DNA of 64,000 nt, from the NCBI GenBank assembly GCA_905178155.1, contig CAJINV010000004.1, positions 5,682,828 through 5,746,827 on the forward strand, in the 5' to 3' direction. The notes beneath the pieces are model-generated. The model searched no databases and was not told the origin of the DNA. It saw only the letters and a program-made list of their open reading frames with translations. The position numbers were made by a program, and so were the translations under genes. Each line of letters opens with the position of its first letter. Within the stretch, counting starts at the first letter, position 1. Positions 1 to 55,300 of the stretch are shown here, in pieces. The stretch comes from Amoebophrya sp. A120. Lineage: Eukaryota; Protista; Dinoflagellata.

Positions 1-1566
1 TCTGTTCCTCCAACTTCTTCCTTCTCGTCCTTCCCCTGCTGGGTCGCTATCTTTACGCCTGCCGCGACGTCGTGCGGGTGGTCCTTTTTCGTGTAGTCGG
101 GATTCTCGTGTGCTGCTGTAGCACCGCCCACACTATCATCATCCTGCGTGAAGACGCCTGCATTTCTGTCGGACACGGAGGTCCTCCGAGGGGGAGGATT
201 CATACTAGGTCCTTCTGCGCGAGGACCCTCTGGAAGATGCGTAGTGGCCGTCGTTATTAAGGACGACGAGTCATCCAGCGACTGTACTAGCAGTGAGGAA
301 TTATGTGTAGAAGAGGCCGCATCAATATTTCTGGCGTCTCTCGCCGATGTTTCCGCACATCCGCCGCCCCCTGCGCCGGCGGTCGACGCTGCCATCGAAG
401 GCTGGCGTTCGTCTTGGAGATATTCAGTGTGCTCCCCGTGCACCACCAGCGGCCTTGTCTCTCTTTCTTGCGCACCACTACAACTCGTCCCGCTGGCTTC
501 GTTCTGTCCAAAAATCCTAGCACCGCTCGCTTCTGGAGTCACACGCTGGACCGCCGTGCTTGAAGTCACATGCTCCGACGACGCGGAAGAAGTTGTTGCA
601 GCGCTAGCGGTGGCATTCGCACTCTGCTGGTGCAGCTCGTCGTGCCCGTTATTGAGAACAGCCTTTGGTGAAGAACCACATGGAAGATTGTTCTCGGTCG
701 TCGTGTTCGTGGTCACGACCTGCGCGCAGCCACGCACCATGGCACATATGGGCTCGCCCCGAGCTTGCACTGCGGAAGAGGCTCCTGCTGAGCCGACAGG
801 AGGCTCCTTGTTCAATATCGCGGCGCCTAGTACGACCTCGCTTGTTGTACTTTCCTGCCTCCGAGGACGGTGTACTTGCTCGTTGGAGGTGGACAAAGAT
901 AATTCCTCGGAGCAGGACTGGAGGTCTCCTACAACTGCGCCGCCGTTCAGCAAACCAGTAGTACCGGTCGTACTACCACGCGAGCCACAGGTCGGCGAAA
1001 TGGGAGCTGGCGACAACCCTGCTCTGGAAGATATCCAAGAAAAAAACATTGTAGGTGTAACTTTTTTGGAGGAACTGCATCACAAATTTGTCTGGCATGA
1101 CAGCAAAAACCTGTCACGCGCAGATAGGACGTGACAACGTCCTTTAATGGACCCTACGATACATCCCAAGCATGACAGACGCAATCATCTTGCATCGTGC
1201 GCATCACAAATTTACGCTAACGACGTTTTTTTCTTGGATAGAGGTTGTGCTAGTACTACTATGGGATGCTGTTGTAGTGGTCCCTGTGTGGAAGTGGAGG
1301 TACGAGTGATATGCAAAGAAAAAGTGTTTTACAGTTGCACATGATTTTAATATTGCGGAACACCCAAGACAGACAACCTTTGTCATGCCAGAAATGCGAA
1401 CGACACTCGTTTCATACGTGTTTTTGCTTATGTTGGTCGCAGCTGCATTAGAAACCTGCTTCCCTGTCGTGAAGAGCAAGTTTCTATTGCTAGAGTCACA
1501 ACATCAACATCTTCAAATGTGCAGCTGTGAAACACTTTTTTCGTGGGATATCTAAGCTTCGCTCAT
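1..1566 (-). CDS. Low-complexity S/T/A-rich hypothetical protein, 5' part; runs off the window start
   Basis: The minus frame is open from 1026 to 1 (SRAGLSPAPISPTCGS...KDEKEEVGGT). It joins HFHTGTTTTASHSSTSTT across element 1032-1240. The ATG at 1566 is tentative. Confidence 0.6.
1032..1240. mobile_element. Introner-like intron, family E
   Basis: TATCCAAGAAAAAAAC...GTTTTTTTCTTGGATA. Flanks GAAGA/GAGGT (3/5). Removing element+5 gives T-S-R-A in frame. Confidence 0.8.
1310..1550. mobile_element. Degenerate introner-like element
   Basis: Left end TATGCAAAGAAAAAGTGTTTTACAGTTGCACAT pairs imperfectly with right end ATGTGCAGCTGTGAAACACTTTTTTCGTGGGATA. TSD decayed (AGTGA/TCTAA). Confidence 0.65.
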
Positions 1567-1634
1567 TCTCAGATCTCACTCACGACTCGGTGTCATATAA
1601 TGAGCTCCTCTTTGATTGTGTACACTTTCCTTTT

Positions 1635-4600
1635 TTAAGCTCTTCTTAGCACAGCGGCGCGACGGTCGTGAAAGATGATCGCTTTGCGGGCCAACACCTT
1701 GAAGATGCGTGCTGCAGCCCCTCGCACCCACGAGGAAACAAGAGGGTGGAGGGCAACATCACCGCCGCAGAAATCAGAAAATGGATCTGTTTGGGAAAAA
1801 AAAGGATCGATAATATTTAAGTCAGCATCAAAATTCATACGTTGCTGTGCGTCGCCGCTGGCCGGCTTCTCTGCGGCGGCAGAGGCATTGACGTTTAGCG
1901 CGGTGAGCTATGAGAGTGCACAACTCCCCCTCCCCCTCATTTGTCATGCAAAACACCTGCTCCACGCTTCGCCTCTTGGCACTGTTTGCATGAGAAGTTC
2001 TGGTAGCCCAAATAGCACTACACTCCAGTGCAAATCTGTCATGCAAAACCGGCACTCTTGCTAACGCTTGGATTGCCGTTCATGCTATACAAATGAGGAG
2101 AGGGGGAGTTGTGCGCTGTCATATGAGCATGCGATCGCGCTCCTGCTTTTTTGCGTTCTCGATAGCTTCCTGCAGCTGTCGGTCGTGCTCGTCTTTCAGG
2201 TCCTTTACCGCGTTTTCCGCTTCTTGACACCGCTTCTCCGCGTCCTTCTGCTCCTTTTTCAAACGCTTCTGCTCCTCTTTCAGAGATTCCTTGTCCTGCC
2301 GGAGTTGCGCATGGAGCGAAAAAAAGTTGCGCAAAGGAAAAATTGTTCATTCTCCTGAGTGAAGATGCAGAAACTCTTTCGTACGCCTGCGTCTGCGGCT
2401 CTGAAAGTGCAAGTTGTGCATGTAGTGATTTTACATATACCATCACACCGTAAGCTTCTTGTAGCAACGACGCGATGATCATGATTGTTTGAGGTTCGTT
2501 CAATTTTGTCTGTTCATACAGAAAACACTTGTTTGTTGACAATACAGCAACTGTTATGTCCGTATGCGGAAGACGAAGATGGCCCACAAATTTATCATGC
2601 TGACATTACATTTACAACACCATGCATGGTCGATCTTTGATGTGCAGCTGCCCTTTTTTCGTCTCATATTGCTCCTTCTCTTTGTAGTGCTTCTTTCGTT
2701 GGTATCGCAGGAAAAACTACCGCACTTTAGTGTAACTTAAACTTTGCATTCGTCTACTTTCTTCATCTAGAAAAGAGAAAAACAAAGAGCGGCAGATACC
2801 GATACGATGGTATACAGAAGATGATGTGTGCAAGCTGACCTACTTATGCAGAGTTCGCATCACGAAGTTGTAAGACCAACAAGTTACACTATAGACACTA
2901 TAGTTTTTCCAACATATTTCGTCGTTCCATTCGTCCTCACGATGCGCCCAGTTAGACCGCTGGGTTTGATACATTTTGGTTCGCAGAGATCATGGCTATT
3001 TCCCCAGTTGTATTTTTATTTTCCTAGCTCTGGTACAAGTGCTCAAGTGAAAATCGACTACTGGCATTCATAGCATTTACTTAGGTGACCTCACGGGGGC
3101 AGTGCTGGCCCCTAGAAAATGCAAAACGAAATACGAAAGAGCATCGTCGTAAACCGTGAATTCAAGCTAAAGGCTTCGCTCCTGCCGAAGTTTTACTTTT
3201 AGTTTTGTAGTCGAAATCAAAAAATATTAATATACCTCTTTGTCCAGTTTGGCTTCTGCTTTTTCCTCCATTTCCTTCATTTCCTCCTCATGTTGCTCGA
3301 TCTGCTCCTCGAGTTCTGCGTTGCGGTCGGATAGCTCCTTGTTCCGTTTATTCAGCGTTTATCAAATGCAAAAATGTCTGGATCTGGAAGAATGCAACTT
3401 GTGATGCTGCATTTGGATTCCAAAAAAATCTGTATTGCATGAGTACCAAAGGGAATGTAATTTTTGCTACGCGGAGAGGGCATTTGTCATGCGGAATAGG
3501 CATCAAGAAGCTCTCAAAAAATCTGTATTGCTAGGGCATGCATCACAGGCATCAGGGCTCATGCAAAACGTGCATGACAAGTGTCCCAATCTTCCAGACG
3601 CAGACATTTTTACAGTTGATAGCGTTTTGTTCTCGTCTTCCAGAAACTGCAGGTCCGACATGTGCGCGTGAATTTGCTCCCCCAGACGCAATATCAAATG
3701 CAAAAATGTCTGGGTCTGGGAGAAAGCAAGATTTGCCATGCATATTTCTCATGACCCATGATGGCTGTAATGCATGACCTAGCATCGCAGACTTTTAGAG
3801 GGCTTCCTGATGCACCTTCCGCATGAGAAATGCCCCGTCCGTGTAGCACAAAGCGTGCCCCTCTTGCTGGTCATGCAATACAAATTTTTTTAGAGTCCAA
3901 AAACCGCATGACAAGTTGCAATCTTCCAGACCCAGACATTTTTGCAATTGATACGCAAAAAGTCCTGCAGCATGGGTGCCTGCAGCTGCGGATGCAGCTC
4001 GCTGAACGCGCTCGCGCTGCTTGAGCCCGCGGGTAATACGGCTGCCCCGGGTAGAAGTTGTGCTCCTCCGCCGCGCGCTAGTACGTTGTTAGAGGAGCTA
4101 GTAGCAGCACCACCTCCCCCGGGTCCTCCTCCTATTACACCGGACGGCGGACGCGGTACGCCGGGCGGCAGGGAAGTAGCGGCGGAGACACCGCCACGGA
4201 GGGTCTGTACCTCGCCGCGGAGCACGTCCTGAAACGTGTCGCGTATCACGCGGGCCATAACCGAAGACAGGGAGGAGGGTCCGCCGGGGGTCGGAGTGAG
4301 GGGCCCGAAAGTAGGTCCTCCGGGAAGAGGCGTGGAGGAAATTGCGGGGTGGGTATGCACTTACAAAAAACTTTTGCATGATGTCCAGATCTGGTCGGGA
4401 AAGAGAACTACACTATATCTGTTGCTGGAACTACGAAAGGAAATTCAGATCCACTACAACAGCGAGCACTCTTGAAACCCGATTTTGCGAGCCCTGGGAC
4501 TTCATGATGGTGGCTGGACGAATGAAACAAAGAAGCACTTTGCTTTCGTATAAATATGGTTCTTTTCTTGTGGTGAATGAGTGAGGATCGCATGATGAAG

Positions 4601-6984
4601 AGGTCAACATGGTTTTTGCACTCAAAAAGCGAGTTTTTTTGCATCTGCCTTCGTTCCATGCGCAATTAAAAACTACCTCCCAGTTCCGGACATGATAAGA
4701 TGTTCGTAATGCATACGGCAGTGTGCTGGCCGCGTGTTCGGCTAGGCCGGAAGGTCCGGACGATCCGTCGGGTACCGCAGGTTGGACGAAACCTGGACCT
4801 AAAAATCGTTTCAATACGAGCGTTCTTGATTGTCAAAGGCGTGGTCACGAGTTCTCGAATTGTAGATTTGAGAAAAACTACAGGCGATGTGAATAGATGT
4901 CTCGACGACGACCGTACGTGAAAGAGTACTATTGGAACTACATCGAAGACCGTACAGCGCAACAAAATAATGATACTTTTACTTTAATATGACATTAAGT
5001 ACTCCTTCTTCTATCCAAAATACTTATTACCAGCTGGTAGCGGCCCGACTGGTTGTAGCGGCCCCGGAGCTGCTGCTCCCCCTACACCCGCAGCGTAGTT
5101 GTAAAACCCCCCCGGGGCGGACGGGGTTAGCACTTGCTGCGGCGAGGGCGCGGGCAGGGTGGCTCCTTGACCGGGAGCGAACGTGGGGAAGACGAGCTGG
5201 GAGGAGCTTGTAGTGGTGCTTGTTCCACCGGGGCCACTCGAGGTCCCGGCGGGCGGGGGCGTGACGGGGGGCTGCGACGTGGAACCGGTACTCTTCGTGG
5301 GCTGTAGCAGAGCCGTCGGCTGCTCTTGTTGTACTCCTTGTTGTGCCACCCCGCCTGAAGTAGATGCGGCTGTCGCGGTTGCCGCCCCCGCGGACGCAGT
5401 AGTTGTTGTACCACCGGGCTGCTGGTCCGGCGGCAGAGAGAGCTGGGCGGAGGTGCTCGTGGTGCCACCGGAGGTAGGCTCCGACGGCGGTGCTGCGTAC
5501 TGCAACGGCGCAGTTGTGTGCGGTGGTCCGGCGGCAGTTTGTGGAACGCCCGGTCCCGTTGCGGTACTGCAGGGTATCCAAGGAAAGAACTACTGATGTG
5601 TCGAAAAAACATAACAAGACTTGCTGGAAGTAATACAGCAGCAACAGGTGTCGCGCAACCGGAACTGATGCGTAGTCTAGTACAATAGGAATAGATACTG
5701 CTGTAAACACATACACCACGTGTGAAGTTCAAGTTCGTGTTTGCCCGTGCAGCAGCATCCAGATCCAGCATGACAAAACCGAGTACTTACTGTATTGCAA
5801 CATGGACTGCTCCTTTGCAGCGTTCCACCCACGCAGTTTCTTTCCCGCTGGATAGCCGCGGAAGTGGACACGATCGTTGTCCCACTGAGGTTCGCGTCTG
5901 GCGGCGGCACCGCGACGGCGGATGAGAGCAGCGTTGGCGGTTGCGTAGGTGCACCAGCCGCGCCAACTTGGGATTGATGTTCCCCGGCGGGCGGCCCTTG
6001 CGTTTGTTGCGGTGGAGGTGCCGCAGGAGCTGCTGCGCCGCCCGTTGCACCTGCAGTTGCGCTGGAAACAACGGCAGCTCCGTCTGGAACCGGGTCGACG
6101 ACCACTGGAGTTAATAATCCCGTAGTACTACCAGCACTTGTCGTATTGGTAATTTCTCCCGGTGCAGCGGGCGCAGCGGTCTGTTGCGCCGCCACTACAT
6201 CTGTTCCCACGGAAGGAGCAAGTCCTAGTAAAACCGGGGCGGGAGCTTGGGTCGTCGTGGCTGAAGTTGCTGTTGTTCCCGTTACACCAGCAGCTCCGTC
6301 GACCCCCGCTTGTTCCGCGGGGGGAGGTGGCTGTGCGCCTGCTCCTGCGACGCCGGTACTAGAAGAAGCCGCTGGCGGCGGGGGAGGCGGGGGCGGTCCT
6401 GAGCCAGCATTCTGGCCTCCACTGAGACTGGAATTGGTCGTTTGCTGCGGTGTCGTTGTGGTTGACGCGGCTTGGCCGGTGGCTGTAGCTGCTGTGGACA
6501 CTGCAGCAACAGCAGCAGTACCTCCTGGCGCGTTAGTGTTGTTCGCCGTAGAGAGTAGACTCGAGCCTCCGGCAGTCCCTATACCTTGCTGTTCGTTTGG
6601 CGCAGGCGGCGGGGGTTGCAATACCGGGTCTAGCTGCGACAACACTGCGGAAGATGATGTTGCTGTGTTGCTAGCTGTGTTTGCGGCGGAAATTATCGCA
6701 CCTGTCGCCGGGGGCACGACACCACTGGCGCCCGCGGACGTCTGGTGCTGCTGGCTGCTCCCCCCGCCTGGGTGTTGATCCACGACCTCCCCGGTGGGCA
6801 ATGGTGGTGGTGGCGGAGGAGCGATGGCCGTGCTGGACGAAGCGGGGCCGGTTCCCGCTATCACGCCCGCTCCTTGCGCCGCCGGGTCGGCGGCGGGCCT
6901 GCTCTGGGCAGCAGAATCCGAGCCTCCTCCTCCGACCGGCGGTGGAGGTGGCGGGGGTGGCGCGGTGGCCTCAGAGTTCTCCAT
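1635..6984 (-). CDS. Multi-exon hypothetical protein with Pro/Ala/Gly/Thr-rich N-terminus and coiled-coil C-terminus
   Basis: ORF pieces 5677-6984, 5011-5505, 3890-4360, 2119-2334 and 1635-1838 join across 5 introners and GT-AG introns, e.g. QDFLR|LGEQIHAHMSDLQFLEDENKT|LNKRNKELSDRNAELEEQIEQ. Exons between 2360 and 3230 are unresolved. Confidence 0.7.
1909..2123. mobile_element. Introner intron, family D
   Basis: TATGAGAGTGCACAACTCCCCCTC...GAGGGGGAGTTGTGCGCTGTCATA. Perfect TSD TGAGC. Frame restored (DRML|TALN). Confidence 0.92.
3360..3621. mobile_element. Introner intron, family A
   Basis: TATCAAATGCAAAAATGTCTGGATCTGGAAGA...TCTTCCAGACGCAGACATTTTTACAGTTGATA. Perfect TSD GCGTT. Frame restored. 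Confidence 0.93.
3692..3953. mobile_element. Introner intron, family A, opposite orientation to 3360-3621
   Basis: Same TIR. Perfect TSD CGCAA. The interior is a reverse-complement homolog of 3360-3621. Frame restored. Confidence 0.93.
4354..4715. mobile_element. Old, degenerate introner intron
   Basis: TATGCACTTAC...GTAATGCATA with a weak TIR and a decayed TSD. Removing element+5 joins STLP|PAISSTP in frame. Confidence 0.6.
5575..5854. mobile_element. Old, degenerate introner intron
   Basis: TATCCAAGGAAAGAACT...AGTTTCTTTCCCGCTGGATA. TSD decayed. Removing element+5 keeps frame (TSAA|STATGPG). Confidence 0.62.
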
Positions 6985-8967: not shown

Positions 8968-11251
8968 CTACTTGCTCAGCGCCCGTGCAACGAGTGCGGC
9001 CCAGGTATCGACGTCTTCGCCGGGTCGGGCAGAAGAGGGACCACGACGCGGAGATGATGCCCCGTCCTCTACAGCGTCCTCGCCGCCGATTTCCCCGCAC
9101 GCCCGGTCGTCGGTCCAAGAGCTTTGGTCCACCATGCGTCCGATGTCGTCGCACCACTCCGCGTACCCCGAAACGGCGCGGCGCAGGTGCGAGTTGAGCG
9201 TCAGCTTCATGTCCTTCACGTCGCGGTCGAAGTCCTCCAGGAACCCGAGGATGGCCTCGAGTAGTCGCTCTTTCGGCTGGTTTATGACAGTGCACAACTC
9301 CCCCTCGCCCTCATTTGTATAGCATGAAGGGCAACACAAGCATCAGCAAGAATGCCGGTTTTGCATGACAAATTTGCACTGGATTGTAGTGCTACTTGGG
9401 CTACTAGAACTTGTCATGCAAACAGTGCCATCATCGTCATGTAGTGGACACCCGCTCCCAGTGCCAAGAGGCAAAGGGTGGATTGGGTATTTTGCATGAC
9501 CAATGAGGGGGAGGGGGAGTTGTGTACTTTCATATGGTTCATCAGGGAGGCAGCTTCCTCCCGCAGGCCTTCCCACTGATCGTCCGCGCCGTCGTCGCGC
9601 ATGACGACGTCCGGAGCCGCCGTGCCGCCCTGCATCAGTTCGTCTGCATCGCCGCCGCCAAACACGTGGCTGTTCCGCGCGAGGTCACCGGTAGTAGTTG
9701 CACGAAAAGTTGTCCCGCGGCCCCGGTCGTGCTGGACCTGCAGCAGCGAATGCAAGTGTTGCATCTGCAACAGGTGGCCACCCTGCATGCCGTGTGCCGT
9801 AAGCAAGAAGGTGAGATTATCCTGAGTAAAAACGTCCCCACACCATAGTCAAGATGGGGAATCGGCTAGACAAATCCACAAGTTTTGGCTGTTTTGCATG
9901 ACAAATTTGGATTCGTAGTGTAGTGCTGTTTGAGCCAGCTCAGCAGCATCACAGATCTAGCATACCATGCTGATTGGAGCATAACAAAATGCAAAACACC
10001 GCTAGAAACTGCTTCTCATGGGGCTCCGCATGAGAAACATTTTCAGCATGCAGATTTGCATTACAACTATGGGGTGGGGACGTTTTTCAATAGGATACAG
10101 ATCCCACCCCGGCAGCGGTGTCTTGCGGAGAACGTCAAAACTGCACCCCGATGTTGAGCCACTGCTGGAAAATGTCGACGTCCGCGAAGTCATATGCATT
10201 GCAAAAGTATCGTACTAGTAGTAATCGCATTTACAACAAATTGGCTCAGCATGACAAATGGAATTTGTCATGCTATTTTGCCTTGGGATGGAGATTTGTA
10301 ATGCATAACTGCGATTAGGATTACTACGAGTACGATACTTTTGCACAGCATAAGTCAGGAACTTTGTGTACTGCCGCACCAAAGCCTCCTCCAATTCGTC
10401 CGCCTTGCGGAAGCGAAAGCTGGCACGGACGCTGTTGATGGTCACCTCGACTTGGCACTTCTCGTTCTATGGGTTGCAAATATGTCTGGGTCTGGAAACT
10501 TGTGATGCAAGCCCGTGAAGAATAAGTGCTCCGTAATGCGCCGCCAAGCATTACAAATTTTTTCGTGCTTCTGTGCTGTGTATTTCGCATGAGAAACTGC
10601 GCTTGTGCATGACAGGCCAGAGGACCTCTACTTGGTGCCCACGCAATACAGAGCTCAGAGTCATGCCAGACTAGCATGACAAATCTCGCAATCTTCCAGA
10701 CCCAGACCTATTGGCAATCCATACGTTCTCGTCTCGAGCAATTACGACGGGCTTCAGCCTGCAGTCTGGGTGCATTTCCTGCACCTCGACCTCGGGACGG
10801 TGGTTTTGCCGCTCCACCACCGGCGAGGGCAGGTGTACCACGCAGAGCGCCGCTTTCAGGGTTTCAGCGACGGCCCGCAGGTAGGGCCGGTTCGTTAGGT
10901 GTTCGGGGGATGTGTGCATTGCAAATATGTCTGGGTCTGCAAAGTTGGAACTTGTGATGCTAAATTTGAATCATGCAAAAATCTGTGCTGCGTGAGCGCC
11001 AAAAACTGTCCACTTTCGACCAAGTTCAGGATAGGCATGATAGAGACTTCGCAGACGAGTCTGTCATGCTAGGTGCTGCATTGCAGACCTCATCGGGCAT
11101 GGAAAATATGCATGACAAGTCTGCACTCTTCCAGACCCAGACATTTTTGCATTGGATAGGACGCTGTGGATGTGGTGGAAGGGGGTTGGTGCGGCGGTTC
11201 CTGCTGGAGGTGCTGGGGTCGCTCCGCGGAGGACACCTTCTGGTACTTCAT
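8968..11251 (-). CDS. ARPC4: Arp2/3 complex subunit 4 (ARPC4/p20-Arc), expanded; 6 exons, 354 aa
   Basis: Spliced protein RPYLRAVAETLKAALC..PSPVVERQNHRPEVEV..LKPVVIARDENEKCQVEVTINSVRASF..ADELEEAL..FDVLRKTPLPGWDLTFLLT..KERLLEAILGFLEDFDRDVKDMKLTLNSHLR follows the ARPC4 consensus. Spliced length 1065 nt is divisible by 3. Confidence 0.9.
9283..9534. mobile_element. Introner intron, family D, inverted relative to 1909 and 48560
   Basis: TATGACAGTGCACAACTCCCCCTC...GAGGGGGAGTTGTGTACTTTCATA. Perfect TSD TGGTT. Confidence 0.92.
9818..10097. mobile_element. Introner intron, family C
   Basis: TATCCTGAGTAAAAACGTCCCCAC...GTGGGGACGTTTTTCAATAGGATA. TSD GAGAT/CAGAT (4/5). Confidence 0.92.
10193..10352. 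mobile_element. Introner intron, family B
   Basis: TATGCATTGCAAAAGTATCGTACTAGTAGTAAT...ATTACTACGAGTACGATACTTTTGCACAGCATA. Perfect TSD AGTCA. Confidence 0.92.
10468..10723. mobile_element. Introner intron, family A
   Basis: TATGGGTTGCAAATATGTCTGGGTCTGGAA...TTCCAGACCCAGACCTATTGGCAATCCATA. Perfect TSD CGTTC. Confidence 0.92.
10913..11158. mobile_element. Introner intron, family A (TGT variant left end)
   Basis: TGTGCATTGCAAATATGTCTGGGTCTG...CCAGACCCAGACATTTTTGCATTGGATA. TSD GGATG/GGACG (4/5). Confidence 0.9.
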
Positions 11252-37200: not shown

Positions 37201-40200
37201 TTGGAGTGGTGCTCTGGAGTGGCCTTCATTCCGGATGTTTTGGTCACATCATCTGTGCCAGCAGAAGTCGCGATGTTCTTGTTCTTTCCCCCCGGTGCAG
37301 ATGAGGACGCACTGGTCGTTCCGCTTGTAGTCGCGGCTGTACTACCTGTAGTCCTTGCTTTCCCCTTCGTTCCGGTTCGGCGACGCTCCAGACGGTCAAG
37401 AAAGCGGTCGACCTCCTCCTTACTGGCGAAATCGTACACACTTGTCCGTTTCGAGCTTGGGGTTGTGGATGTAAGAGTTTCTGTGGTCACCTCAGGGTCG
37501 TTCTGGTTTTCCTCTCGTCCGGGGATGGTGGAAGTAGTGGAACGACTGGAGGTAGCTGCATTTTTCCTGTCCGAGCCCGATTTAGAAGGAGTTGACGATG
37601 ATGAAAAGGATTCACTTTGAAGGTGCGGCCGCGCCGGCGGTTCCTTTAGGTTCTTACCGTTCTGCTCACTTGAGATTTTCCTCGAGGACGATGTCTGCTG
37701 CAATTCCCCCACCGGAATTTCAAAGCGGACCCGCTGGTGTGGGGTGGTGTTCTGCGTATGCGACGTCTTCTTGCCGCTCTTATTCGTCGGCGCAGGTGAT
37801 TTGTTTTCTCTGTTGTTCGTCGAACTGGTGGCTCCTTTTCTGTTTCTCGCGGAAGGACGCAGCAACTTGGAGTCAAGGAAAACGTCGAGTTCCTCCTTGC
37901 TTTCGATTTTCCGCACGTCCTCACGGATGGGCACGATGCGCACGGAGCTGGGAATCACCCGTTCGAGAAAGCCTCTGCTCTGCGCCCGCGTTTCCGCCGC
38001 GCGAAGCCCTTCCACCGTGCAGCCCGGGTGTAGCAGCTCCCAGAAGGCTTTCTCCCACGCGGGATCGTCTTTCGACAAGACCAAGGTCCGCGGCTCGGCG
38101 TTGGGCTGCTGTTGTTCTTGCGCCTTTTCTTTTGACGTGCTGCCAGCATCTTCTCGATCAGGAGAGGCGCCAATGGCTGTTTCGTCAGAGCTACAGGGCC
38201 CGCCGGAAAATGTCGCGTTTAAGTCGCCGGTGTTCGTAGTCGTACCGGAAATTTCTGTATCCGCCAGAGAACTTGTTCCGCCCCTCACGTTCGACGTGGA
38301 TTTGTTTTCCGCGTTCGCACTAGCCGTGGTTTTCTGTCCCTTGCTACCGCTCCCGCCGCCGTTGTTCGGGCTGCCCGGGGGTCCGGCGGTGTCTCCAAGC
38401 GCGTTCTTGTTGCGTCTACTCAGCAAGCTGCCGGCGCTGTCGCTGGGCCACGGCCGTTCGCGCCACAACAACTCCGCAATCCCGCGGTCCAGAGCGGTGC
38501 TGTCTTCCGGAAATGCGCTATCGCCACTGAAGCCCGTAGGCGATGACGCCGGAGCTGCTCTGCTATAGCCAAGACCAGTTGTACGTTTGATAGGCTTTTC
38601 CTCTTCATTTGCAGCATTTTCGTCCTCGCCGCCGCTATCTCCTGGCGTCTTCGACGCAGAGTGGTCTCCGGACGTCGAGGAAGCGCTACTTGTAGTTGCG
38701 GAGGTGCTAGTTCCGTGCTCGAGGTCCTTTTCGGTCTGACCATCAGCTGTCTTACTTCCGACCGGAGATTGTTCAGCATGCAGATGATCATGATCCCTTG
38801 TCGACTGCTTGCGCTTCAGCTCCGCTGCAATGCTGTCCGCACTACGTGAGGGCAGCGGCTCGCTCTCGTTCGTCGTGGTGGTGCTTTTTGTGTTTTTCTT
38901 GCTTGTCCTCGCAAACTTGCCGTACACTTGGTCACCAACGAGCTCCAACTGTGCGATTGCAGCGTAGAGGGCTTTGGAATTCGTGCCAGTTTCGCCGTGG
39001 TCCCTGCTTCCAGAAGAAGAGTGGTCCTCTCCGTTTTTGTTGCTCCTTCCTTGTTCGAACAATGCCGCCATGTCCGTCCCTTGCAACATTTGCGAAACAT
39101 TTTGGTCGATGGCGTCCACAACAGTTTTCACGTTTCGGTCGTTCTTTCTCCGCTGCAGTTCCGGGGGATCGCGAACTTCGGTTTTCGGGTCATTTTGTGT
39201 CGCTGCGGGTGCTTCTTCTCCTTCTACTTGGGCGGCTGTGTAGCTGCTTTCTTGTTCATCTCCACGAGCGGCGTCACCATCTATTTTCCCGTTGGTAGGA
39301 CGAGGAACAGGGCCACTCGTCCCATCCTGCTGATCTTCAAGCAAATTGACTTGGTCCGAGGACCTGCGCCGCCGCACCGGCGCGCCGCGTCTGCCGGAGT
39401 TCTTGCGAAGATCATTGGTCGGACCGAGGTGGCCTACTTCACCTCCGGGCTGGTCAGAAACTACGTCTTCGTGGTCAACAATGTGGTACTTCGCGCCTTG
39501 CTGTCGCACCCGCGCAGTCGACGCGACAATACGGGACGAGGAGGGCAACTTTGTGCTGCTGAACGGCGAAAAGCTGGACGTCAGGTTGAGCACGAAGTTG
39601 AAATACTTAATCGTCTCAAAGGCGTCCTGCTGCGATACAACGCCTATCCTCTGCAAAGATATCTTGGTACGACTCGTTCTTCGAACTTTTGCCAAAGGAA
39701 CAAATTGTGTGGTTTTTCTTGTGCATGCCAAAACGTATGTTTGTGCAAATGCACAAATGGTGTAAATTCAATTCTGCTTCATAATGGTACAATGATAAAG
39801 TACGAGTACGACGATAATTTTGCAAAGCATAGGGTCGGCCCGCACGTGCTTCACGGCCCGGGTAAGAAGGTACGGTAGCTGCGCGGAAAAGTAACTGGGC
39901 TGCAACGGTGAAGATAGTTTTTGGCGCAGCAGTTCTACTTGTTTCACGTCGCCCAGCTTATGGTGTTGATCTTCGCGGTTCCCACCCTGGTCGTGCTTTG
40001 ACAAAACCTCCTCCAAAGCGGTACTTCTACTCTCCTTCGGCGGCGGCGGCGGCAAAAAGAATTCCCCGTCGTTATTGGCGCGTTTGAGTAGACGCGTCAG
40101 CACGTGGAACGCGGGTACGGTGTCTTGGAACTTGTAGGTCCGGGCCGATTCGTGCATCCAAAATTTTTTCGGCGGCGCCAACACGAAGACCCGTGCCACA

Positions 40201-46300: not shown

Positions 46301-49300
46301 AAATGTTTGTCTGAAGACGATCTGCCTTCCGCATCAGTTTGCGCCGAGACTGTACTGTTTGAGGACCGCAAGAGCGACGTCCTAGAAGTTGTTCTCTCCT
46401 GCAGCCAGTGCTGTCTCCAGCGCTCCCGGTGATTTGGCACCACCAAGTTCAGCAGGGCCCGCGCAATCCGCGTAATGCCGTCGAGAATGTTCGCTGCTGC
46501 TTCGGCGCAGACTTCCTTATCTGGCTCGAAGAATTCCCTTCTCTGTTCGAATCTCATGTGCTGGAGCCGATCGTCACTAAGCATCTGAATAATGCGGCAT
46601 CTGATATCCAAGGGCTCGCTGAAAAATGCTGCTTCCGAACCGCCATCAATAAGGCCCTCGCTGGTGGTGTTCCTGGACACCGAACCATGTCCGGAAGCAG
46701 TTTTGGAGCTGAAAGACCGCCCTCCCATGCCTGTATTTTTACCACTCTGCTGTTGAGCCTTACGGGCAGCTATCTTCCGCTCCACGAGCTCCCAGCGGCT
46801 GCGACGCTTCCTGACGCTTTCCGCAAAGAACCGCAGTCGGTCCTGTGCGTTGTCTTCACCGCTGGTGGTGGTGTGGTCAAAATACCCCGGGTCGAAGAAT
46901 CGTTGCTGGAGAGAAAGCTTCTCCACGCAGCACGAGTGCGTAGAACCGTCCAGAATAGCCCCCAAAATCACTCCGTCCTGCGGCATGTCGAGAAAAACGG
47001 CAGTCGCGATGAGCTGAGCGACCAACAGGTCGTGGCAGGGAAGGGTGTGGACGAAAAGACCGAAGGTGGAGGGGAGGATGGAGGAGGAGCGGAGCTGTGT
47101 TGTGTAGTTCCGGAGCTGCTGTTTGTACGATGAGGCGTGTCTGCTCTGGTCTTCCAGTTGGCCTATGGTAGTACTACTACCTGCTCCACGGGAGCAGGAC
47201 GAGGTGTGGCCCATTGCGAGGTCCTGAGTTGACAGGTCGGCTGAGCTTCCACGTAGTGCCGCCGTTACTGCTGGCGGCAAGGGTGTGGATGTGACGCGAC
47301 CAGAATTATCAACATCGTTTTCAGATGAAATCGCGCCAGCGCTTTTATTGTCCGCAGTTTGATCATGGCAGTCCGGTGCAACACGTTCGGGAATCGACAT
47401 CTCGACGAAGTTTTGGTCTGCACGGGAGTCTGCTATTTCAAGAGGAGTTTCGTCGGGGCCCATCGACTGGAATTGTTTATTCTTCTTGTATCGGTCTTGA
47501 CCGGCCCTTTCATCGTCCCCGGCCGTAATACAGAATGAGTCGAAAAGACGAGCAGCACGCAATAAGCTAGAGCTAGTGGAACCTTCATCGACTTCATCAC
47601 GACGATCTTCATCTTGCTGTCGCACTGCAGATGATCCCACAAGATGTTCCCCGTGTTGCCCGAGACTCGCGACCCCATCATGAGAACAAGGCACAGCATC
47701 GCCCACAGAAACGATAGAATTTTTTGTTTCCCCATCGCGCGCACTCTCCGGATGTTCTCGAACCGGAACCCGAAGCAGCCCTCTCCGGTCGCAGTCGCGC
47801 ACAAGCACAAGCCAAAGGCCACGATCAACTCCGTTCGCGGTACTTTTTCCACCGCCTCCGTCTAGTCTCAGCTGCAGGTCTTCCAGCATGGCCAGCGTGG
47901 CGTAACAGCGATGGCGCTCGTGGTCGTGTTGCGTACTAACCGATAGTACCTCGGCTTGTTTGCCCGCAGACGCACCATCGTCACTCACATCAACCCCTAC
48001 TGGCTCCCAGACCCACTTATTGGAACGCGCATCCCAGTGGCGGAATCGGCGACGACACACGGGATCGACGTAACCCGCGTACAAGTAGTCATTAGCGAGA
48101 TGACCGGCGATGATCTTCATTGCGAAGTTAAGTTCTTGGGAGACTGCGCAGGCACGTCCTGCAGCTGCTTCACCACTCATCTCGTCGCCCTTCGAGAGCT
48201 TGTTTCTTTGGTCTGCTTGCAGCAGCTCTTTCCTGTTTAGGCTTCCAAAAACCTTTTGGATCTTCTCCTCGAGTCCGCGCAGCATCAACGCCCGTTCCGC
48301 GGCACATTCCAGGATCATTCCGCGTCGGTCACAGTCTTGCCAGTGCTGAGTAGAGCAGTCCGGTAGCGTATCGATCGAACAGGGCGAAGTCAACGAGTCC
48401 TCCTTGCAGTAGTAGCTCCCGGTAGTTGATATTTCAGCAGAGACGTTGTCCTTGTTGACTGGAACTGCAGCCCTACTCTCCGAAGCTCTTCTTGTCCTCG
48501 CGGGAAGATCTTCATCATTTTTACGGAAGTACAAGGGAAAGTAAAAGCCGGGCTGCCCATATGACAGTGCACAACTCCCCCTCCCCGTCATTTGTCATGC
48601 AAAATACCAATTTTAGGCACTGACACTGTGCCTCTTGGCACTGGTTGCGTGATAAAGTCCGGAATCCCAACCAATACTACACTCCTGTGCAAATTTGTCA
48701 TGCAAAACCGGCATTCTTGCTGACGCTTGCATTTCCGTTCATGCTATACAAATCAATGAGGAGGAGGGGGGGTTGTGCACTCTCAACATAGCACACGACC
48801 GACCCGTCCGCGCCGCTGCTTTTTCTGCGCTTCAGTCGCAGGCCGGCGCTGTAACTGCACGGCGCGACTCACCTGGTGAAACTGTTCGCACTTTTGCAGT
48901 CCAATGTCCACTACGCAAAGAAGTTTCGGTAGCGTCACACCCGTCTCGCAGATATTCGTAGACAGAAGGATGTGCAACTCGTTTTGGTTTTATGCAACGC
49001 AACAATCTTTTCGATGTTCCCTCACCGCGACATATGGTTTGCTTTGCGTAGACTGTGTTGTTTCATTGACAGATATATTGCATGCAATGCGGGCCAGCAC
49101 AAGAAACTAAGTTCGTGCAGCAATGTGATCATTATATTCATACAGGCCAGACGCAGACAGACTCGAAGGCGGGACAGGAGACATCATGATCCTTGCGCCA
49201 GTGCATACATCAGGTACGTGCTTCTGTGCGAGCTCGTTATCCGCCCCGGGCAGCATGCCGTGGATCTGGTCAATACGGACGTGGTCAAACTTTAACACGC

Positions 49301-52300
49301 CCTCCAGCTCTTCCTTCAGACTCGGAACGTCAATTGTTTTGCTCGTTTTTTTCTTCTTCGCCCTCGTGGTCGAAGTAGTAGCAGAACCGGTCGCCGAAGA
49401 GATGTTGGCAGTAGTACTCCCCACAGCTCGTGCTCGAACCCGCTGCATTTTGGCAAAACAGTCCCGCGTCTCGGGGTCCCCGGGGAGAAAGACGAGCAGC
49501 TTCGCGCCCTCGCGTTGCACGGTTTCCAAGATTCGGGTGTCTCGGAACACCGGTCCGTTGCTGGCGAGGAGCAAGCGGAGCACAAAAGGGACGTGGGAAA
49601 AATCGAAATCGTTGTAGGAAGTGTAAGTGAAGTCGGTTGGGATAGCACTAGTAGTACCAGGAGTCTTACATTGCAACTCACGGCTTCTTGTTCGGCGCAA
49701 TAAAGAAACAAACTTTCTAGCTTCTTCCATCAGGTGCCACGGTGGAGAAGGACTGGATGCCGGAAATCTCGTCGCGCCTACTTGCACAACTCCTGGTTCC
49801 TGTGATGGAGGTTGTTTGTTTCGCCATCGAATATCTGTCATCTCCTCCAAGGCTCGTAGCGTTTCACTTTCAAAGTCCCGCGTCACCACCGGAAACGGAG
49901 TTCTGCCCTCGACGCAGAGCACCCGGCGGTCTTTTGGGTCGTTCTCCGGTTTTATCGGTATTTCGCGTTCACCTTCTTCCGGGAGGACGGGCGCTCCGTC
50001 GCTTTGCTTCGTTGCGACAGAACGACCGTCGTCTATAGCTTCTTCTTCATTTTGAGTTTCGTTTTCTGTCGCGGAATTAACAGGTGGTCCTACTTCAGCT
50101 GTGTCTACTGACGCGGCTTCCACTCCGTGGTTTACTGCAGGATCATCCTGCCGGTTGCTGGTACTAGAGTGTTTTGCCTTTCTTCTACCCCTTTTGGTGC
50201 CTCCGAAGCTGTGGAACCCGAGAGGTTCGAAATACTGCAGTAGCGCTTCCAGATTTGGCGTCGCGGACATCAGCATCAGCTTAATCGCGGCGTAGCGCGG
50301 GCGCGACAGATGGATGCGGAGGAAGCCAAAGAGCTGCTCGAGCTTTTCGTCTCGTTCGTGGGCTTCGTCTAGAATGATGTGCGTGAACTGATCCAACTGT
50401 AGTTTCATGATGTTCGAGACACCTGTTCCGGAGTTCGCTTCTGCAGCAGCGAGAGTGCTTGTGGCGAAAGCTGCCCCTCCTGTCGAAGTCGTAGCTGGGT
50501 GGTGTGGATCTGTCGGCGCGACGTGATCTTCCAATAGATTCATCGGGCCAAGATGTTGACCGGAGGGAGTGCTAGCTGCGGAGGTCATCGACACGGACGG
50601 TAAGAGGTCTCCGGTTGCTGTAGCTCCATGCCCCGACATGCTCTCTGCGAACAAGGGCCCTTGTCCGCTCGGTAGATTGCAGGCAGATGACGCAGGAGCC
50701 GTTGAAATCTGTTTGTAAAAGTACTCGGGTGTCAAAAAGACAATGGGCGCGATCTTCGGCCGGTCGGTTTCGGTGTCCCCGCCGATCCGATACGCCACAG
50801 GGGAGTTCGGATCCGCAAATAAGCCAGCACAACGATGAAAAGAAGCCGCAAACTTCGCTTTCCTCTCCCCAAATACCCCACACACGTCCTGGGCCAGGCG
50901 CGCGTAGATATGGATTGCAAAAATGTCTGGGTCTGGAAGATTTCGAGATTTCTCATGCTAGTTTGGCATTACTGTGAATTCTGTACTGCGTGACCACGAA
51001 GACCTCCTCTTGTCTGTCATGCAAAAACGATGTTTCTCGTGCGGAATATGCAACAGAGAGCCACGAGCAAATCTGTCATGCTTGGCGGTGCATTACAAGG
51101 CGCTTTCTGTTCACTGACATGCATCACAAGTTTCCAGACCCAGACATTTTTACATTTGATAGTAGAGGCTCTTGCACGTTTCCCGGCGTGGCTGCACCAC
51201 GGCGATTCGGCAGGGTTTTTTGCGTATTCATTGCAAAAGTATTGTATCGCACTAGTACAGATTGCATTACAAACTGGCTTAGCATTACAAATTGAATTTG
51301 TAATGCGGATTTACCTTGAGAAAAAAATTTGTAATGCATGACTGCAATTACTACGAGTACGATACTTTTGCACAGGATATTGCGCACACAAATCTCGTTG
51401 TGCGCAATCATCAACGCCACCAAAGTAGACTTCCCCGTGCCCGTCGGCGCTTTCAGTAGAGAAAAGCGGTTTGCGTTTACGAGACGCAGGACTTTGCGGT
51501 ATCTTTTCGCAACGGCAAGCTTCTTGCTTATTTGCCGATAAGGACCACCAGCATTCGTTGTTGCTGAGCCGAGAATGTGGGTATCAAAGCCACTTTGCAG
51601 GTACTGACAAAGGAAGTTATTGTTCACTTGGCTCTCTCGGTATAAACGGTCCCAGTACTGGCGCATGGTCGTTGCACTTGCCGGGCAGCTTGTAGAATAA
51701 GAATTGTGCAGCTGCAACTGCAGACGAGAGGCCGGAGTCGCGCCGGCACTGCCAGACGCGACAGAAGACAGCAGTGGCGCGCCATCTTCTCCTTGTAGTT
51801 GCCTGTTCTTTTCATCAACATCTCGCAAGCACATCGCGTCTTCCCCTTCTGAGCCGTCGGCTAAACTTGTACTTGTTGCGTCGCTGTCTTCATCTGACGT
51901 CGAGCTGTCACTCTCGCTGTCATCTTCGCTACTGTCTTCCTCGTCTTCGCCGGGCCTGCAATGGTCGTCAAGGCCGCGGACCAAACCGAGCATCTCACCA
52001 ATGATTCTTGGCGGTGGAGGAAGAGGAGATGATGCGAAAGAGCTTGGCGGAGAGGTCTCAGTCGCGAGAGCGCCACCGGCGTTGCCCTCGAGAGCAGTGC
52101 GTATTTCGCCATCTTCTACGTCGTTGCCAGAGAAGAGTTCTTGATCTTGCAGCAGCATGTCTGTTTCTATTTCCGACCTCAACGTCAACCGTTCGTCCGG
52201 TACCGGCGCCAGGACGTGGTGGCGCAGGATGTAGCAACAAAGCGCACGCAGATTGTCGGATTGGGTCAGGTTTTGAGCAACTTTACGAACTGCGTCGGCA

Positions 52301-55300
52301 AGAGATCGCTCTTCGGTAGCAGGAGGCAAAAATGGGTCCGAACTCGTGGATATTGTGTGTGCGGCCGGTACTTCTTCTATGCCAGATCTGTAGCAGTTGC
52401 TTCCGCGTGCTGTCGCAGTTCTATCTGGCGCCAGACCTAGATTCGGCTCTTTGTTTGTTCGCGTGTTTCCAGGCGCTTGCTGGTGCAAAGCAACCAGCCT
52501 GGCACACAACGACCCAAGACTTTCCACAGCTGACTTTGTCGTCAACATATTGATCGGCTGATGCCGGCCCTGCTTCGCGGTTTTTTTCTTACTGGTGGCC
52601 CTTCGCAAGTGTTTCTGTTCCTCCTTTTGGATCACATGGGCAGTGGCGAGTTCGAGCTTTTCGAGAAAAGTTGTGAGAGACGCTCGAATATCAAATGTAA
52701 AAATGTCTGGGTCTGGAAGAGTGCGAGATTTGTCATTGTCATGCACGTTTTGCATGAGCCATGATGTCTGTGATGCATACCCTAGCAATACAGATTTTTT
52801 GAAGGCTTCTTGATGCCTATTCCGCATGACAAATGCCTTGTCAGCGTAGCAAAAATTGCATTCCCTTTGGTACTCATGCAATACAGATTTTTTTGGAATC
52901 CACACGCAGCATCACAAGTTGCATTCTTCCAGACCCAGACATTTTTACATTTGATATAGAAGGAAGCTGCGGAGGCGAACTGGACTTTTACCATTTATTT
53001 CGACCTCGCGTCGAAACCACACTCGTTCGTCTACAACAAGGGCCAGAAAGTTGCGAACAAGAGCAGCCTCTTGGTCTACTCTGTGGCTCCTGACGAGAGG
53101 AGCATCAAATCTCGCCGTTCCAGCCCCCGGTGAGTTGTGCCACTGTGCCGGTCCCCGCGCCGTGGTCTCCTGGGAGGTAGAAGAGAAAAAATCTTGGTTC
53201 ATCGTCGAGAAGAAACAACAGACCCGGCTGCGAGTTGTTGCACTTCTTGTAGTACAACTGGCTCTGACGACGGTTTTGGTTTTGTTGTAGCTGCTCGAGT
53301 CATCGTCCATTCCGTTTTGTGCTTCATCGTCGCTCATAATCTTGCAGGACTTCGGTACTACATCAGAAACGCTTCCGTGCTGTTCTTGCGGAGTTTGTTC
53401 TTCGTTCGCATGCTCTGAGTGGAAGAACTCTGCTGGTGTAACATTTCCGTTTTGTTCGCTGTTTCCCGCGTCCTGGGGTGTGAAAATAGCCGCCAGATCG
53501 AAGCGGCGGAGGCCGGATGAAGAATCTTCACCTGTTACGTCACGACCCTCGCCTTCTCGATTCATCTTCTCGTAAACCACAACCACTTCGCGGAGAATCC
53601 CCTGCTCCAAGAGAGTACTAGCGTTACTAGCTTCACTTGTCCGCGCAACGGTCGGAGTCTTTCTCCCCGTCTCGACACAAGATTGCCTTTGATTTCCGTT
53701 GCAGGTTTTTGTGTGGAAGTCAATCAGACGCTGCTCGCACAGTCGAAGGGAAGTCGATCGCGATGCAGGTCCTGCCACTGTGCCTTGGTCTCCGTGCTTG
53801 TGTTTGCTGGAAAATAATGAGTCAGACTCTGACCGACTGCACCTCTTTGTATCCACTTCAATCGCCCCGCCACCTTCGTAATTACTCCGCCTTCTTCGGA
53901 TTTCGTCCTCTTCGTTGCCGGTCGAATAAAGCCGTTCCCTGTACCCCTCTACCACATTCCAACAGTCCCGCGCTGCATTCACGGCTTCCAAGTCAGCGCG
54001 CGTCAGAAAATCGCTTTCGTCGTGGAAGAAAAACGCGGCGCCGCGAATCCGCAAGCCAATCACCAGCTCTTCGATAGAGGAGGAAGTGCTAGGAGAACTA
54101 CCTTTTTCACTGTCCGATGCCGGTATCGAAACTGGTGTCCACACAAAAAACGCCAGCTCGGATCGCTTGAGAAACGGCCTGGCAACGGGGGCGACGATGG
54201 TTGTACTATGGCCACGAGGCTCTACTTGTCCTGATTCCCGTTTGATGTTTCTATGCGACGGGGGAACAAACCACGCCCAGCACTTCCTGGCCGCGGCCCG
54301 TAGGTCGTAGGTCTCGAGATCTCGAAAGTTCGGCGCGGTGAAACAGACGTCCAGGTCCGTGGCCCAGCGGGCGAGTGTCCTGTGGAAAAGCGTCCCCACC
54401 CCAGAGCTGTAATGCAAATCTGCATGCTTAAAATGCTTCTCATGCGGAGACCCATGGGAGGCGTTTACGTTTTCTAGTGGCTCATGCTCGAATCAGCATG
54501 ACAGACTGGATCTGTGATGCTGCTGCACTAGCTAAACGCAACTACATTGCGAGCCAAAATTTGTCATGCGCGACAGCCAAAGTGTAGGGATTTGTGTACC
54601 AGATTTCCCATCTTCACTCTGGTGTGGAAACGTTTTTACTCAGGATAGCGAGGAAGGTCAAGCAAACGGCTCTCCTAAACTCGAAGACACAAGCGTCGTC
54701 CATGGTGATGCGATATCAAATGCAAATATGTCTGGGTCTGGACGAAGGTTGGAACTTGTAATGCTGGTCTTGCATTCCTGTGAAATCTGTATTGCATGAC
54801 CAACAAAAGTGGCAGCCTCTCACGTCATACAAAAACGCAGTTTCTCATGCGGAGTCCATATGATAGAGCGTTGCGCAGACTTGTCATGCTTTCCTGCATG
54901 AGGAAGCGTTTTCATCGTGCACATTCTAGCATCACAAATTTCCAGACCCAGACATATTTGCACTTGATATGCGATCTTGGCGGAACAGGCTTCGCTTCGC
55001 GGACACGGAAAACAGCCAGGAGGAGGAATAGCCGTTGCTGTTGTCCTTACTGCAGCGTTGCGTCCTCGGGTCGACAGTGTTTCTCGTCTGTGAAGGGTGA
55101 AGTAGAGAACCCGCACAGCAGGCTTCATGATCTTCTTGACCGGACGAGATGTTTTCAGTTCTTTCCGGCACCTCCCTTGCTGTCTGCTCCGCCTCGTCAG
55201 GACGAGAAGGTAAACGGGCTCTCAGCAAAAATGAGGAGCTCGTTGGCTGGGTTACCGCACCATGTTGACTGCCGAGCGGCCCTGTAACGCCGCCACCACA

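What the first reader, a model, noticed from the sequence alone, without database searches (positions are those of the whole stretch)
1032..54969. Multi-family MITE-like elements acting as non-canonical introns under one rule: TAT...ATA plus 5 nt
Seen: 32 elements from at least 6 families with different TIR sequences share TAT...ATA termini and 5-bp TSDs (14 perfect, 7 with one mismatch). 31 lie inside reconstructable coding sequence, and removing element+5 nt restores the frame each time. Three full gene models come out as exact codon multiples. Established: invasive introner elements with inverted and direct repeats and non-canonical boundaries were reported in Amoebophrya (Farhat et al. 2021), so the class is known; to my knowledge the removal mechanism and the mobilising enzyme are unresolved. 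Inference: one transposase lineage and one removal pathway serve all families, alongside ordinary GT-AG introns in the same genes.
Basis: partly seen in the sequence, partly recalled or inferred. Interest (0 to 1): 0.88.

Follow-up and report, generated by a model that had tools for sequence, protein, structure and literature searches.

The report
Transposon introns with a fixed cut
These are the already published mini-transposon introns of the marine parasite Amoebophrya A120: spliced transcript assemblies lack each tested insert plus exactly five bases although no GT-AG ends exist, and where the cut can be read it falls one base before and four bases after the insert, likely made by a relaxed spliceosome that reads the insert's own ends.

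Summary
Observation confirmed, class already known. The window is Amoebophrya sp. A120 DNA (100% match to a named protein). I count 36 inverted-repeat elements (135-511 bp); 22 of 36 have a 5-bp duplication at 4/5 or 5/5 (about 1 by chance); none can be placed as GT/GC-AG. DNA-like contigs keep the elements. Three copies with decayed duplications pin the cut: 1 base before TAT, 4 after ATA, so the duplication is not the signal. U+2 and A+3 never vary, while their 3' partners drift (9 of 9 confidently oriented changes), and families splice in both orientations. This favours a relaxed spliceosome (about 70%) over a hairpin nuclease. No transposase was found; 'one transposase' stays inference. 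Farhat 2021 published the class, TAT start and 5-bp repeats but called the splice position variable; I did not find the fixed register in the papers searched. This scan reported the same 1+4 register on other pieces of this genome.

The parts
1032..1240 (-). element, 209 bp, flanks 3/5
   Evidence: annotated protein P0002 fits +5; no RNA joint listed
1310..1550 (-). element, 241 bp, flanks 2/5, inside an annotated GT-AG intron (about 1284-1840)
   Evidence: separate removal not tested
1909..2123 (-). element, 215 bp, perfect TSD
   Evidence: RNA joint skips 220
2310..2668 (-). element, 359 bp, 3' end ATG, flanks 4/5
   Evidence: RNA joint skips 364
2703..2916 (-). element, 214 bp, flanks 3/5
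   Evidence: RNA joint skips 219; cut 1-3 bases before
2960..3235 (-). ordinary GT-AG intron in the same transcript (control)
   Evidence: RNA joint skips 276
3360..3621 (-). element, 262 bp, perfect TSD
   Evidence: RNA joint skips 267
3692..3953 (-). element, 262 bp, perfect TSD
   Evidence: RNA joint skips 267
4354..4715 (-). element, 362 bp, flanks 1/5; pins the cut (intron 4350-4716)
   Evidence: RNA joint 4349/4717, no ambiguity
4799..5030 (-). ordinary GT-AG intron in the same transcript (control)
   Evidence: RNA joint skips 232
5575..5854 (-). element, 280 bp, flanks 1/5; pins the cut (intron 5571-5855)
   Evidence: RNA joint 5570/5856, no ambiguity; P0002 fits only this placement
9283..9534 (-). 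element, 252 bp, perfect TSD
   Evidence: RNA joint skips 257
9818..10097 (-). element, 280 bp, flanks 4/5
   Evidence: RNA joint skips 285; cut at least 1 before
10193..10352 (-). element, 160 bp, perfect TSD
   Evidence: RNA joint skips 165
10468..10723 (-). element, 256 bp, perfect TSD
   Evidence: RNA joint skips 261
10913..11158 (-). element, 246 bp, 3' end ACA, flanks 4/5
   Evidence: RNA joint skips 251; terminal pairing probability about 0
16084..16437 (-). element, 354 bp, flanks 2/5
   Evidence: frame only: 171 open codons with +5 against 35 and 32
20283..20582 (-). element, 300 bp, flanks 4/5
   Evidence: frame only: 116 against 19 and 53
26515..26795 (-). element, 281 bp, flanks 2/5
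   Evidence: frame 105 against 22 and 22; spliced contig piece ends at 26796
27212..27722 (-). element, 511 bp, 5' end TAC, flanks 2/5
27771..28093 (-). element, 323 bp, flanks 4/5
   Evidence: contig length and piece end at 28095, cut at least 1 before
29070..29365 (-). element, 296 bp, upstream of the start codon, flanks 3/5
   Evidence: 301 nt missing if the next intron is the GT-AG one at 28570-28814; inferred from lengths
31227..31385 (-). element, 159 bp, ends TAC...ATG, perfect TSD
   Evidence: one of six whose summed length+30 = 1567 nt missing from one contig
31566..31862 (-). element, 297 bp, flanks 3/5
   Evidence: six-element length sum
31893..32172 (-). element, 280 bp, flanks 2/5
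   Evidence: six-element length sum; the annotated protein instead reads into it
32390..32617 (-). element, 228 bp, flanks 3/5
   Evidence: length sum; P0001 fits +5
32690..32950 (-). element, 261 bp, perfect TSD
   Evidence: length sum; P0001 fits +5
33243..33554 (-). element, 312 bp, flanks 3/5
   Evidence: length sum; piece reaches 33555, cut at most 1 before; P0001 fits +5
34592..34726 (-). element, 135 bp, flanks 4/5
   Evidence: P0001 fits +5; frame 600 against 46 and 126
35378..35634 (-). element, 257 bp, perfect TSD
   Evidence: P0001 fits +5
35741..36019 (-). element, 279 bp, perfect TSD
   Evidence: P0001 fits +5
39645..39831 (-). element, 187 bp, flanks 2/5; pins the cut
   Evidence: P0001 fits only +5 with 1 base before
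48560..48790 (-). element, 231 bp, flanks 4/5
   Evidence: frame only and weak: 67 against 55 and 26
50909..51161 (-). element, 253 bp, perfect TSD
   Evidence: frame only: 599 against 88 and 57
51225..51379 (-). element, 155 bp, perfect TSD
   Evidence: frame only: 618 against 77 and 130
52689..52956 (-). element, 268 bp, flanks 4/5
   Evidence: frame only: 1053 against 18 and 32
54376..54647 (-). element, 272 bp, 3' end ACA, perfect TSD
   Evidence: frame only: 1524 against 50 and 40
54714..54969 (-). element, 256 bp, perfect TSD
   Evidence: frame only: 1544 against 26 and 84

Best explanation
These are the published Amoebophrya A120 introner elements, short non-coding inverted-repeat inserts with 5-bp flanking duplications that stay in the DNA and are missing from spliced transcripts by their length plus five bases, likely cut out by a relaxed major spliceosome at a fixed spacing of one base before the opening TAT and four after the closing ATA. 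Shown: architecture, +5 length, register at three copies, independence from the duplication and from AG, both orientations. Inferred: (1) insertion as non-autonomous DNA transposons by a DDE enzyme in trans, which would make the 5-bp duplication; (2) the 5' site would be read as N|UA, the U+2 and A+3 of a normal GUA donor with +1 free; (3) the 3' site would be set by distance from the element's end (A at -7, possibly the branch base), with the inverted repeat bringing the ends together. Because the ends are symmetrical and removal takes 1+4 = 5 bases, a fresh insertion in either orientation would restore the original mRNA exactly, which would explain why the elements spread through exons.
For: 12 of 12 element joints listed skip length+5, in contigs that also lack two GT-AG introns (15 of 16 joints shown, one a repeat artefact; 14 elements lie in the stretch, 1032 and 1310 have no joint listed). 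Six more fit by summed length, 1567 = 1567, and three by a second contig. Register unique at 4354, 5575 and 39645; all other joints allow it. 0 of 36 have an equivalent GT/GC-AG placement, 27 different end classes, none ends in AG. U+2 and A+3 unchanged in 36 of 36 and 112 of 112 confidently oriented copies from a metagenome assembly; changes at the outer two terminal bases lie at the 3' end in 9 of 9 confident cases (4 window, 5 loci; p=0.004) and 11 of 11 with two weak ones, while positions 4-26 drift evenly, 295 against 307. All 8 reference groups occur in both orientations. Register kept where terminal pairing is not predicted (10913, p about 0). Farhat Table S4: all nine top A120 classes have T second, all nine top A25 classes begin TT; U2, U4, U6, U2AF and U1 proteins present, U1 snRNA not found.
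Against: No lariat, branch point or spliceosome dependence was tested. A at -7 is not absolute: 111 of 112 oriented loci copies, one clear G. No preference among first/last base pairs, which spliceosome chemistry normally constrains. Orientation of loci copies rests on a codon model; by ORF length alone three of the seven variant copies (L002-1359, L027-3975, L040-1578) leaned the other way. The spliced contigs are one sample of one study, labelled RNA by guess, and may underlie the annotation, so P0001 and P0002 are not independent of them. No transposase found; Farhat found none in A120. Farhat's Fig. 3 legend calls the splice position variable.
Confidence: 0.7

Rival explanations
1. A structure-reading nuclease and ligase (tRNA-splicing or IRE1/RtcB type, or the euglenid non-conventional route) cuts the RNA hairpin at its base, leaving 1 and 4 unpaired bases, without the spliceosome.
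For: Every element has inverted ends and most are predicted to pair; no AG, no G+1, no first/last pair rule; U1 snRNA not found; euglenid introns have a similar offset stem (+4..6 with -8..-6; review passages).
Against: Polarity of conservation: U+2/A+3 fixed while their partners change to ACA, ATG, ATC, AAA; ATG and ACA copies are removed exactly; predicted terminal pairing is near 0 in 10913, 31227, 33243, 34592, 48560 (34592 was folded with a boundary 2 nt short, and predictions are weak evidence).
Confidence: 0.2
2. Reverse-transcriptase template switching across a hairpin flanked by short direct repeats creates false introns; the mRNA keeps the elements.
For: Hairpin plus direct repeat is the classic substrate (recalled); all transcript evidence here is cDNA contigs of one sample.
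Against: 4354 and 5575 have 1/5 flank identity and still lose length+5 at the same register; frames of 599-1544 codons need the removal; joints carry the full depth of their contigs.
Confidence: 0.03
3. The elements are excised from DNA, like ciliate IESs, in some stage of the life cycle.
For: TA-bounded, transposon-derived, precise; contigs drop rare variants and 39 joints were not shown.
Against: Run X1 holds 26295-31336, 31308-32717 and 35993-40200 as unbroken contigs with no difference, elements included, at even depth; contigs that lack elements also lack GT-AG introns; the register follows transcript polarity.
Confidence: 0.03
4. RNA removal is spliceosomal, but the families are moved by several unrelated enzymes and share ends only because splicing selects them.
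For: 16 of 36 copies have no long match in the window; Gozashti 2025 assigns A120 introners to several TE classes, with automated TSD calls of 2 to 5 in the 20 of 58 rows seen.
Against: TSD length is 5 in 232 of 311 copies and 4 or 6 in 1 and 0; six families share GCATNAC in both orientations, absent from the sense strand of 4 of 12 RNA-confirmed copies, so not needed for splicing.
Confidence: 0.15

Closest known systems
Introner elements / non-canonical introns of Amoebophrya sp. A120 (Farhat et al. 2021, PMC7789003; read: abstract, sections 10-12, 16, 32, supplement passages; figures not visible)
   Same: Same organism, TAT start with a downstream A-run, inverted repeats, 3-5 nt direct repeats with a 5-bp example (Fig. 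S19 legend), about 240 nt, RNA-supported, mixed with GT-AG introns, no transposase found.
   Different: The paper gives splice positions as variable (1-5 nt from the repeat) and the commonest direct repeat as 4 nt; here the duplication is 5 bp and the cut is fixed at 1 before and 4 after, with polar conservation of U+2 and A+3.
MITE-derived non-canonical introns of Fritillaria borealis (PMC13326754, abstract and sections 21, 30; review PMC11282704, passages; Henriet 2019 not read)
   Same: Transposon-derived, TIR/TSD, non-GT-AG introns beside a minority of canonical ones, handled by an altered U2 spliceosome.
   Different: Fritillaria keeps preferred ends (AG/AC, AG/AT, YAY triplets) and U1; here the first base and the last four are free and U1 snRNA was not found.
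Euglenid non-conventional introns (review PMC11282704, passages)
   Same: Stem joins the ends at an offset from the cuts; repeats at the junctions.
   Different: Offset 3+5 and Y|R junctions there; 1+4 and N|UA here.
IS3EU/GingerRoot DNA transposons (PMC10045372, passages) and A120 family 38 (PMC12130899, passages, supplement legends, 20 of 58 table rows)
   Same: TA..TA termini; integrase-like DDE enzymes; family 38 has TIRs and integrase-related homology, a candidate for the mobiliser.
   Different: TSD usually 6 bp there, 5 bp here; family 38's termini and TSD were not seen; no enzyme in my data.

Membership tests
Amoebophrya A120 introner elements | found in Amoebophrya A120 | tested here: met
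   P0001, named Amoebophrya sp. A120, 100% identical over the query
Amoebophrya A120 introner elements | non-GT-AG intron supported by RNA | tested here: met
   12 of 12 joints; 0 of 36 canonical placements
Amoebophrya A120 introner elements | terminal inverted repeats starting TAT with an A-run, and 3-5 nt direct repeats | tested here: met
   31 of 36 TAT...ATA, 22 of 36 repeats at 4/5 or better; A at 264 of 350 positions 11-15 in 35 copies
Amoebophrya A120 introner elements | repeated families | tested here: met
   five families in the window; 19 of 35 with long hits in related loci
MITE (non-autonomous TIR DNA transposon) | short, TIRs, fixed-length TSD, many copies | tested here: met
   232 of 311 perfect 5-bp repeats, other lengths at background; 257 of 304 repeat-flanked inverted repeats end TAT...ATA, 3 pairs in the shuffle
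MITE (non-autonomous TIR DNA transposon) | autonomous partner with a transposase | tested here: inconclusive
   none in 25 window proteins by Pfam nor in 7 long pairs; whole genome not held
MITE (non-autonomous TIR DNA transposon) | empty sites with one TSD copy in relatives | not testable with these tools
   no orthologous locus among 147 loci
IS3EU/GingerRoot | TA..TA termini | tested here: met
IS3EU/GingerRoot | 6-bp TSD | tested here: not met
   0 of 36 and 0 of 311 perfect 6-bp repeats; not filed as a member
U2 spliceosomal intron | GT...AG ends | tested here: not met
   0 of 36; 5 of 112 oriented loci copies
U2 spliceosomal intron | conserved U+2 and A/R+3 at the 5' site | tested here: met
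   36 of 36 and 112 of 112
U2 spliceosomal intron | lariat with branch adenosine; dependence on U2/U6 | not testable with these tools
   no raw reads of the organism at this stretch
Ciliate-type IES (DNA excision) | absent from expressed-genome DNA | tested here: not met
   unbroken DNA-like contigs carry the elements; one run, rare variants not visible

The most novel reading that the evidence does not exclude
Amoebophrya A120 has a spliceosome that needs no G+1, no AG and perhaps no U1 snRNA: it reads N|UA at the 5' end and measures the 3' cut as a fixed ruler from the adenosine of the transposon's closing ATA, used as branch base 7 nt from the end. Any insertion of this transposon lineage, in either orientation, is then a perfect intron, and one integrase-like enzyme with TA..TA ends and a 5-bp stagger has built most introns of the genome.
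Probability: 0.3. Interest if true: 0.8.

Novelty: already known. Interest (0 to 1): 0.42.

Why it matters
How A120 removes more than 60% of its introns without GT-AG is an open question in the source paper. A fixed 1+4 register with polar conservation of U+2/A+3 turns 'variable splice sites' into one exact rule, names the bases to mutate and the branch position to map, and allows junctions to be re-annotated (the public model P0001 reads 80 residues into one element). It would also explain why insertions are harmless: removal restores the pre-insertion mRNA in either orientation. The elements themselves are not new, and this scan has reported the register on other pieces of the genome.

Tried and rejected
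Whole-genome search: no genome held. Transposase: Pfam on 25 proteins gave only DUF179 and two weak helicase hits; of 7 long TAT...ATA pairs with perfect repeats three are chance spans over short copies and four (481-972 bp) are family members with inserted sequence, not scanned against Pfam. GCATNAC as branch point: rejected as obligatory, 11 of 35 copies lack it on the sense strand, distances 39 to over 300. U-tract at -15..-19 as a selected pyrimidine tract: no 5'/3' asymmetry, missing in two families. First/last base pairing rule and GT-AG enrichment: none. Candidate 26191-26284: retained in a spliced-type contig, not counted. Relation of the metagenome organism to A120: one protein search found nothing among proteins of 481-2000 residues, so unknown. 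Rfam: 0 hits. Literature: five searches showed no paper stating the fixed register; Roy 2023 and Henriet 2019 were not read, Farhat's Figs 3, S19-S25 and 38 of 58 rows of Gozashti's A120 table were not seen and may bear on this.
Full report
Observation. A scan for TAT...ATA inverted pairs, a motif-free inverted-repeat scan and an end profile, corrected with transcript data, give 36 elements of 135-511 bp, 14.8% of the window. Their 5-bp flanks match at 4/5 or 5/5 in 22 of 36 (14 perfect), against 1.07 expected and at most 8 in 20,000 permutations; other repeat lengths are at background. Five families have several copies here and 16 copies are single. All host genes examined run on the minus strand.

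Identity. An exon search returned one protein, 100% identical, named Amoebophrya sp. A120. Farhat et al. 2021 (PMC7789003) report that over 60% of RNA-supported A120 introns are non-canonical, that families start with TAT and carry an A-run, that direct repeats of 3-5 nt overlap the junctions, that no transposase was found in A120 and that U1 snRNA was not detected; a supplement legend shows 5-bp repeats. The class is therefore published for this organism.

Removal. Contigs of runs X3-X6 (one sample, RNA by guess) were laid on 700-11300. Of 15 joints shown (16 in all), 12 skip an element plus exactly 5 nt, 2 are GT-AG introns in the same contigs and 1 is a repeat artefact; elements 1032 and 1310 have no joint listed. 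On 26000-40200 one X3 contig lacks 1567 nt, the sum of six elements plus 30; a second fits three more, among them a 511-bp copy that I had missed. Run X1 behaves as DNA and carries the elements in unbroken contigs. Annotated proteins fit +5 at 7 of 10 elements (P0001; it reads into 31893 and ends there) and 8 of 9 (P0002; 1310 lies in a GT-AG intron); they may derive from the same RNA. Eight elements rest on frame alone. None of 36 can be slid to GT/GC-AG.

Register. With perfect duplications the cut cannot be placed. Copies 4354 and 5575 have 1/5 flank identity and give a unique cut, 1 base before TAT and 4 after ATA on the transcript; 39645 gives the same through P0001; 2703, 9818, 10913, 27771 and 33243 bracket it. 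I had read this register in the scan's earlier notes before testing it. The duplication is thus not the signal, which also argues against template switching. At 29070 the cut follows the inner ATA of ATATA although the outer one would give an AG end (inferred from lengths).

Wider sample. A repeat-end pattern fetched 147 loci (557 kb, partly overlapping) from one metagenome assembly whose organism I could not relate to A120. Without asking for TAT, 257 of 304 repeat-flanked inverted repeats end TAT...ATA (3 pairs in a shuffle); without asking for a repeat, 232 of 311 have a perfect 5-mer, 1 a 4-mer, 0 a 6-mer. These filters favour young copies. A codon model trained on window genes (right sign for 34 of 35 window copies; 77 of 80 agreement with ORF length) oriented 112 copies. 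U+2 and A+3 are unchanged in all 112 and in all 36 window copies. Of 15 loci copies with a changed terminus, 7 change one of the outer two bases and all 7 place it at the 3' end (5 confident, 2 weak); with four window copies this is 9 of 9 confident (p=0.004) or 11 of 11. By ORF length alone three of the seven leaned the other way, so this is good but not final. Positions 4-26 drift evenly (295 against 307 in 125 of 147 copies with a family consensus). The third base changes at either end; A-7 holds in 36 of 36 and 111 of 112. The first base, the last four and the first/last pair are free. All eight reference groups occur in both orientations. Farhat's Table S4 fits: the nine top A120 classes all have T second, the nine top A25 classes begin TT, and A25 repeats start TTA.

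Mechanism. Shown: DNA retention, loss of length+5 from spliced contigs, the 1+4 register at three copies, no need for AG or the repeat. Inferred: a transposase constraint would be symmetrical and a pure hairpin cutter would need the terminal pairs, yet ATG and ACA copies are removed exactly and terminal pairing is predicted near zero in several. A reader of N|UA, matching U+2 and A+3 of a GUA donor (established knowledge, recalled), fits best: a relaxed U2-type spliceosome, whose other parts are present, as in Fritillaria. The 3' cut would be measured from the element's end; A-7 as branch base is a guess (short fixed branch-to-end distances in Trichomonas and Giardia are recalled, not checked). 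I put about 0.95 on class and length, 0.9 on the register, 0.7 on the spliceosome, 0.3 on the A-7 ruler.

Mobilisation. A sharp 5-bp duplication, common termini and an internal GCATNAC motif (9.5 against 0.27 per kb, six families, both strands, absent from two GT-AG introns) suit one enzyme lineage acting in trans. TA..TA termini recall IS3EU/GingerRoot, but these make 6-bp duplications, a test not met. Gozashti 2025 describes an A120 family with TIRs and integrase-related homology and lists most of the 20 rows that I saw as TIR DNA, unknown, with mixed TSD and mechanism calls. No enzyme was found here.

Verdict. Real, correctly seen, already known as a class. The fixed register and the polar conservation were not in the papers that my five searches returned (figures unseen), but the scan has reported the register on other pieces of this genome (unreviewed notes, not independent support). 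Interest 0.42, for making an open splicing question directly testable.

Noticed in passing
window 1839-1840: Contigs of X3-X5 leave the window at this GT donor and continue in sequence found neither in the window nor in P0002; the main transcript may skip the exons around elements 1310 and 1032, which have low cover.
   Followed up: partly
window 31893-32172: The public A120 protein P0001 ends with 80 residues read from this element, whereas contig lengths say it is removed: a likely annotation error.
   Followed up: partly
window 49107-64000: A very large minus-strand gene with weak DEAD and Helicase_C hits below Pfam's cut-off; it holds five elements.
   Followed up: no
window 31400-40450: 2224-aa protein with a C-terminal DUF179/AlgH-like domain (E 6e-14).
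   Followed up: no
window 12000-25600: Broken minus-strand frames without Pfam hits; elements 16084 and 20283 restore frames there. A 57-nt repeat at 22235, 23939 and 26287 and a 30-nt repeat/palindrome at 22891-23002; an X3 contig joins 26287 to sequence like 22205-22235.
   Followed up: no
L055 5001-5972, L037 3862-4492, L056 8960-9455, L036 571-1051: Long members (481-972 bp) of the commonest family with perfect 5-bp repeats and unique or simple-repeat sequence inside; length does not seem limiting.
   Followed up: partly
window elements 1032-54969: T is rare at the first intron position (2 of 36; 16 of 105 in loci) and somewhat rare at TSD position 2; not tested further.
   Followed up: no
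PMC12005148 (passages): Amoebophrya sp. ex Karlodinium has U1 and mostly GT-AG introns, a natural control for comparing spliceosome parts.
   Followed up: no
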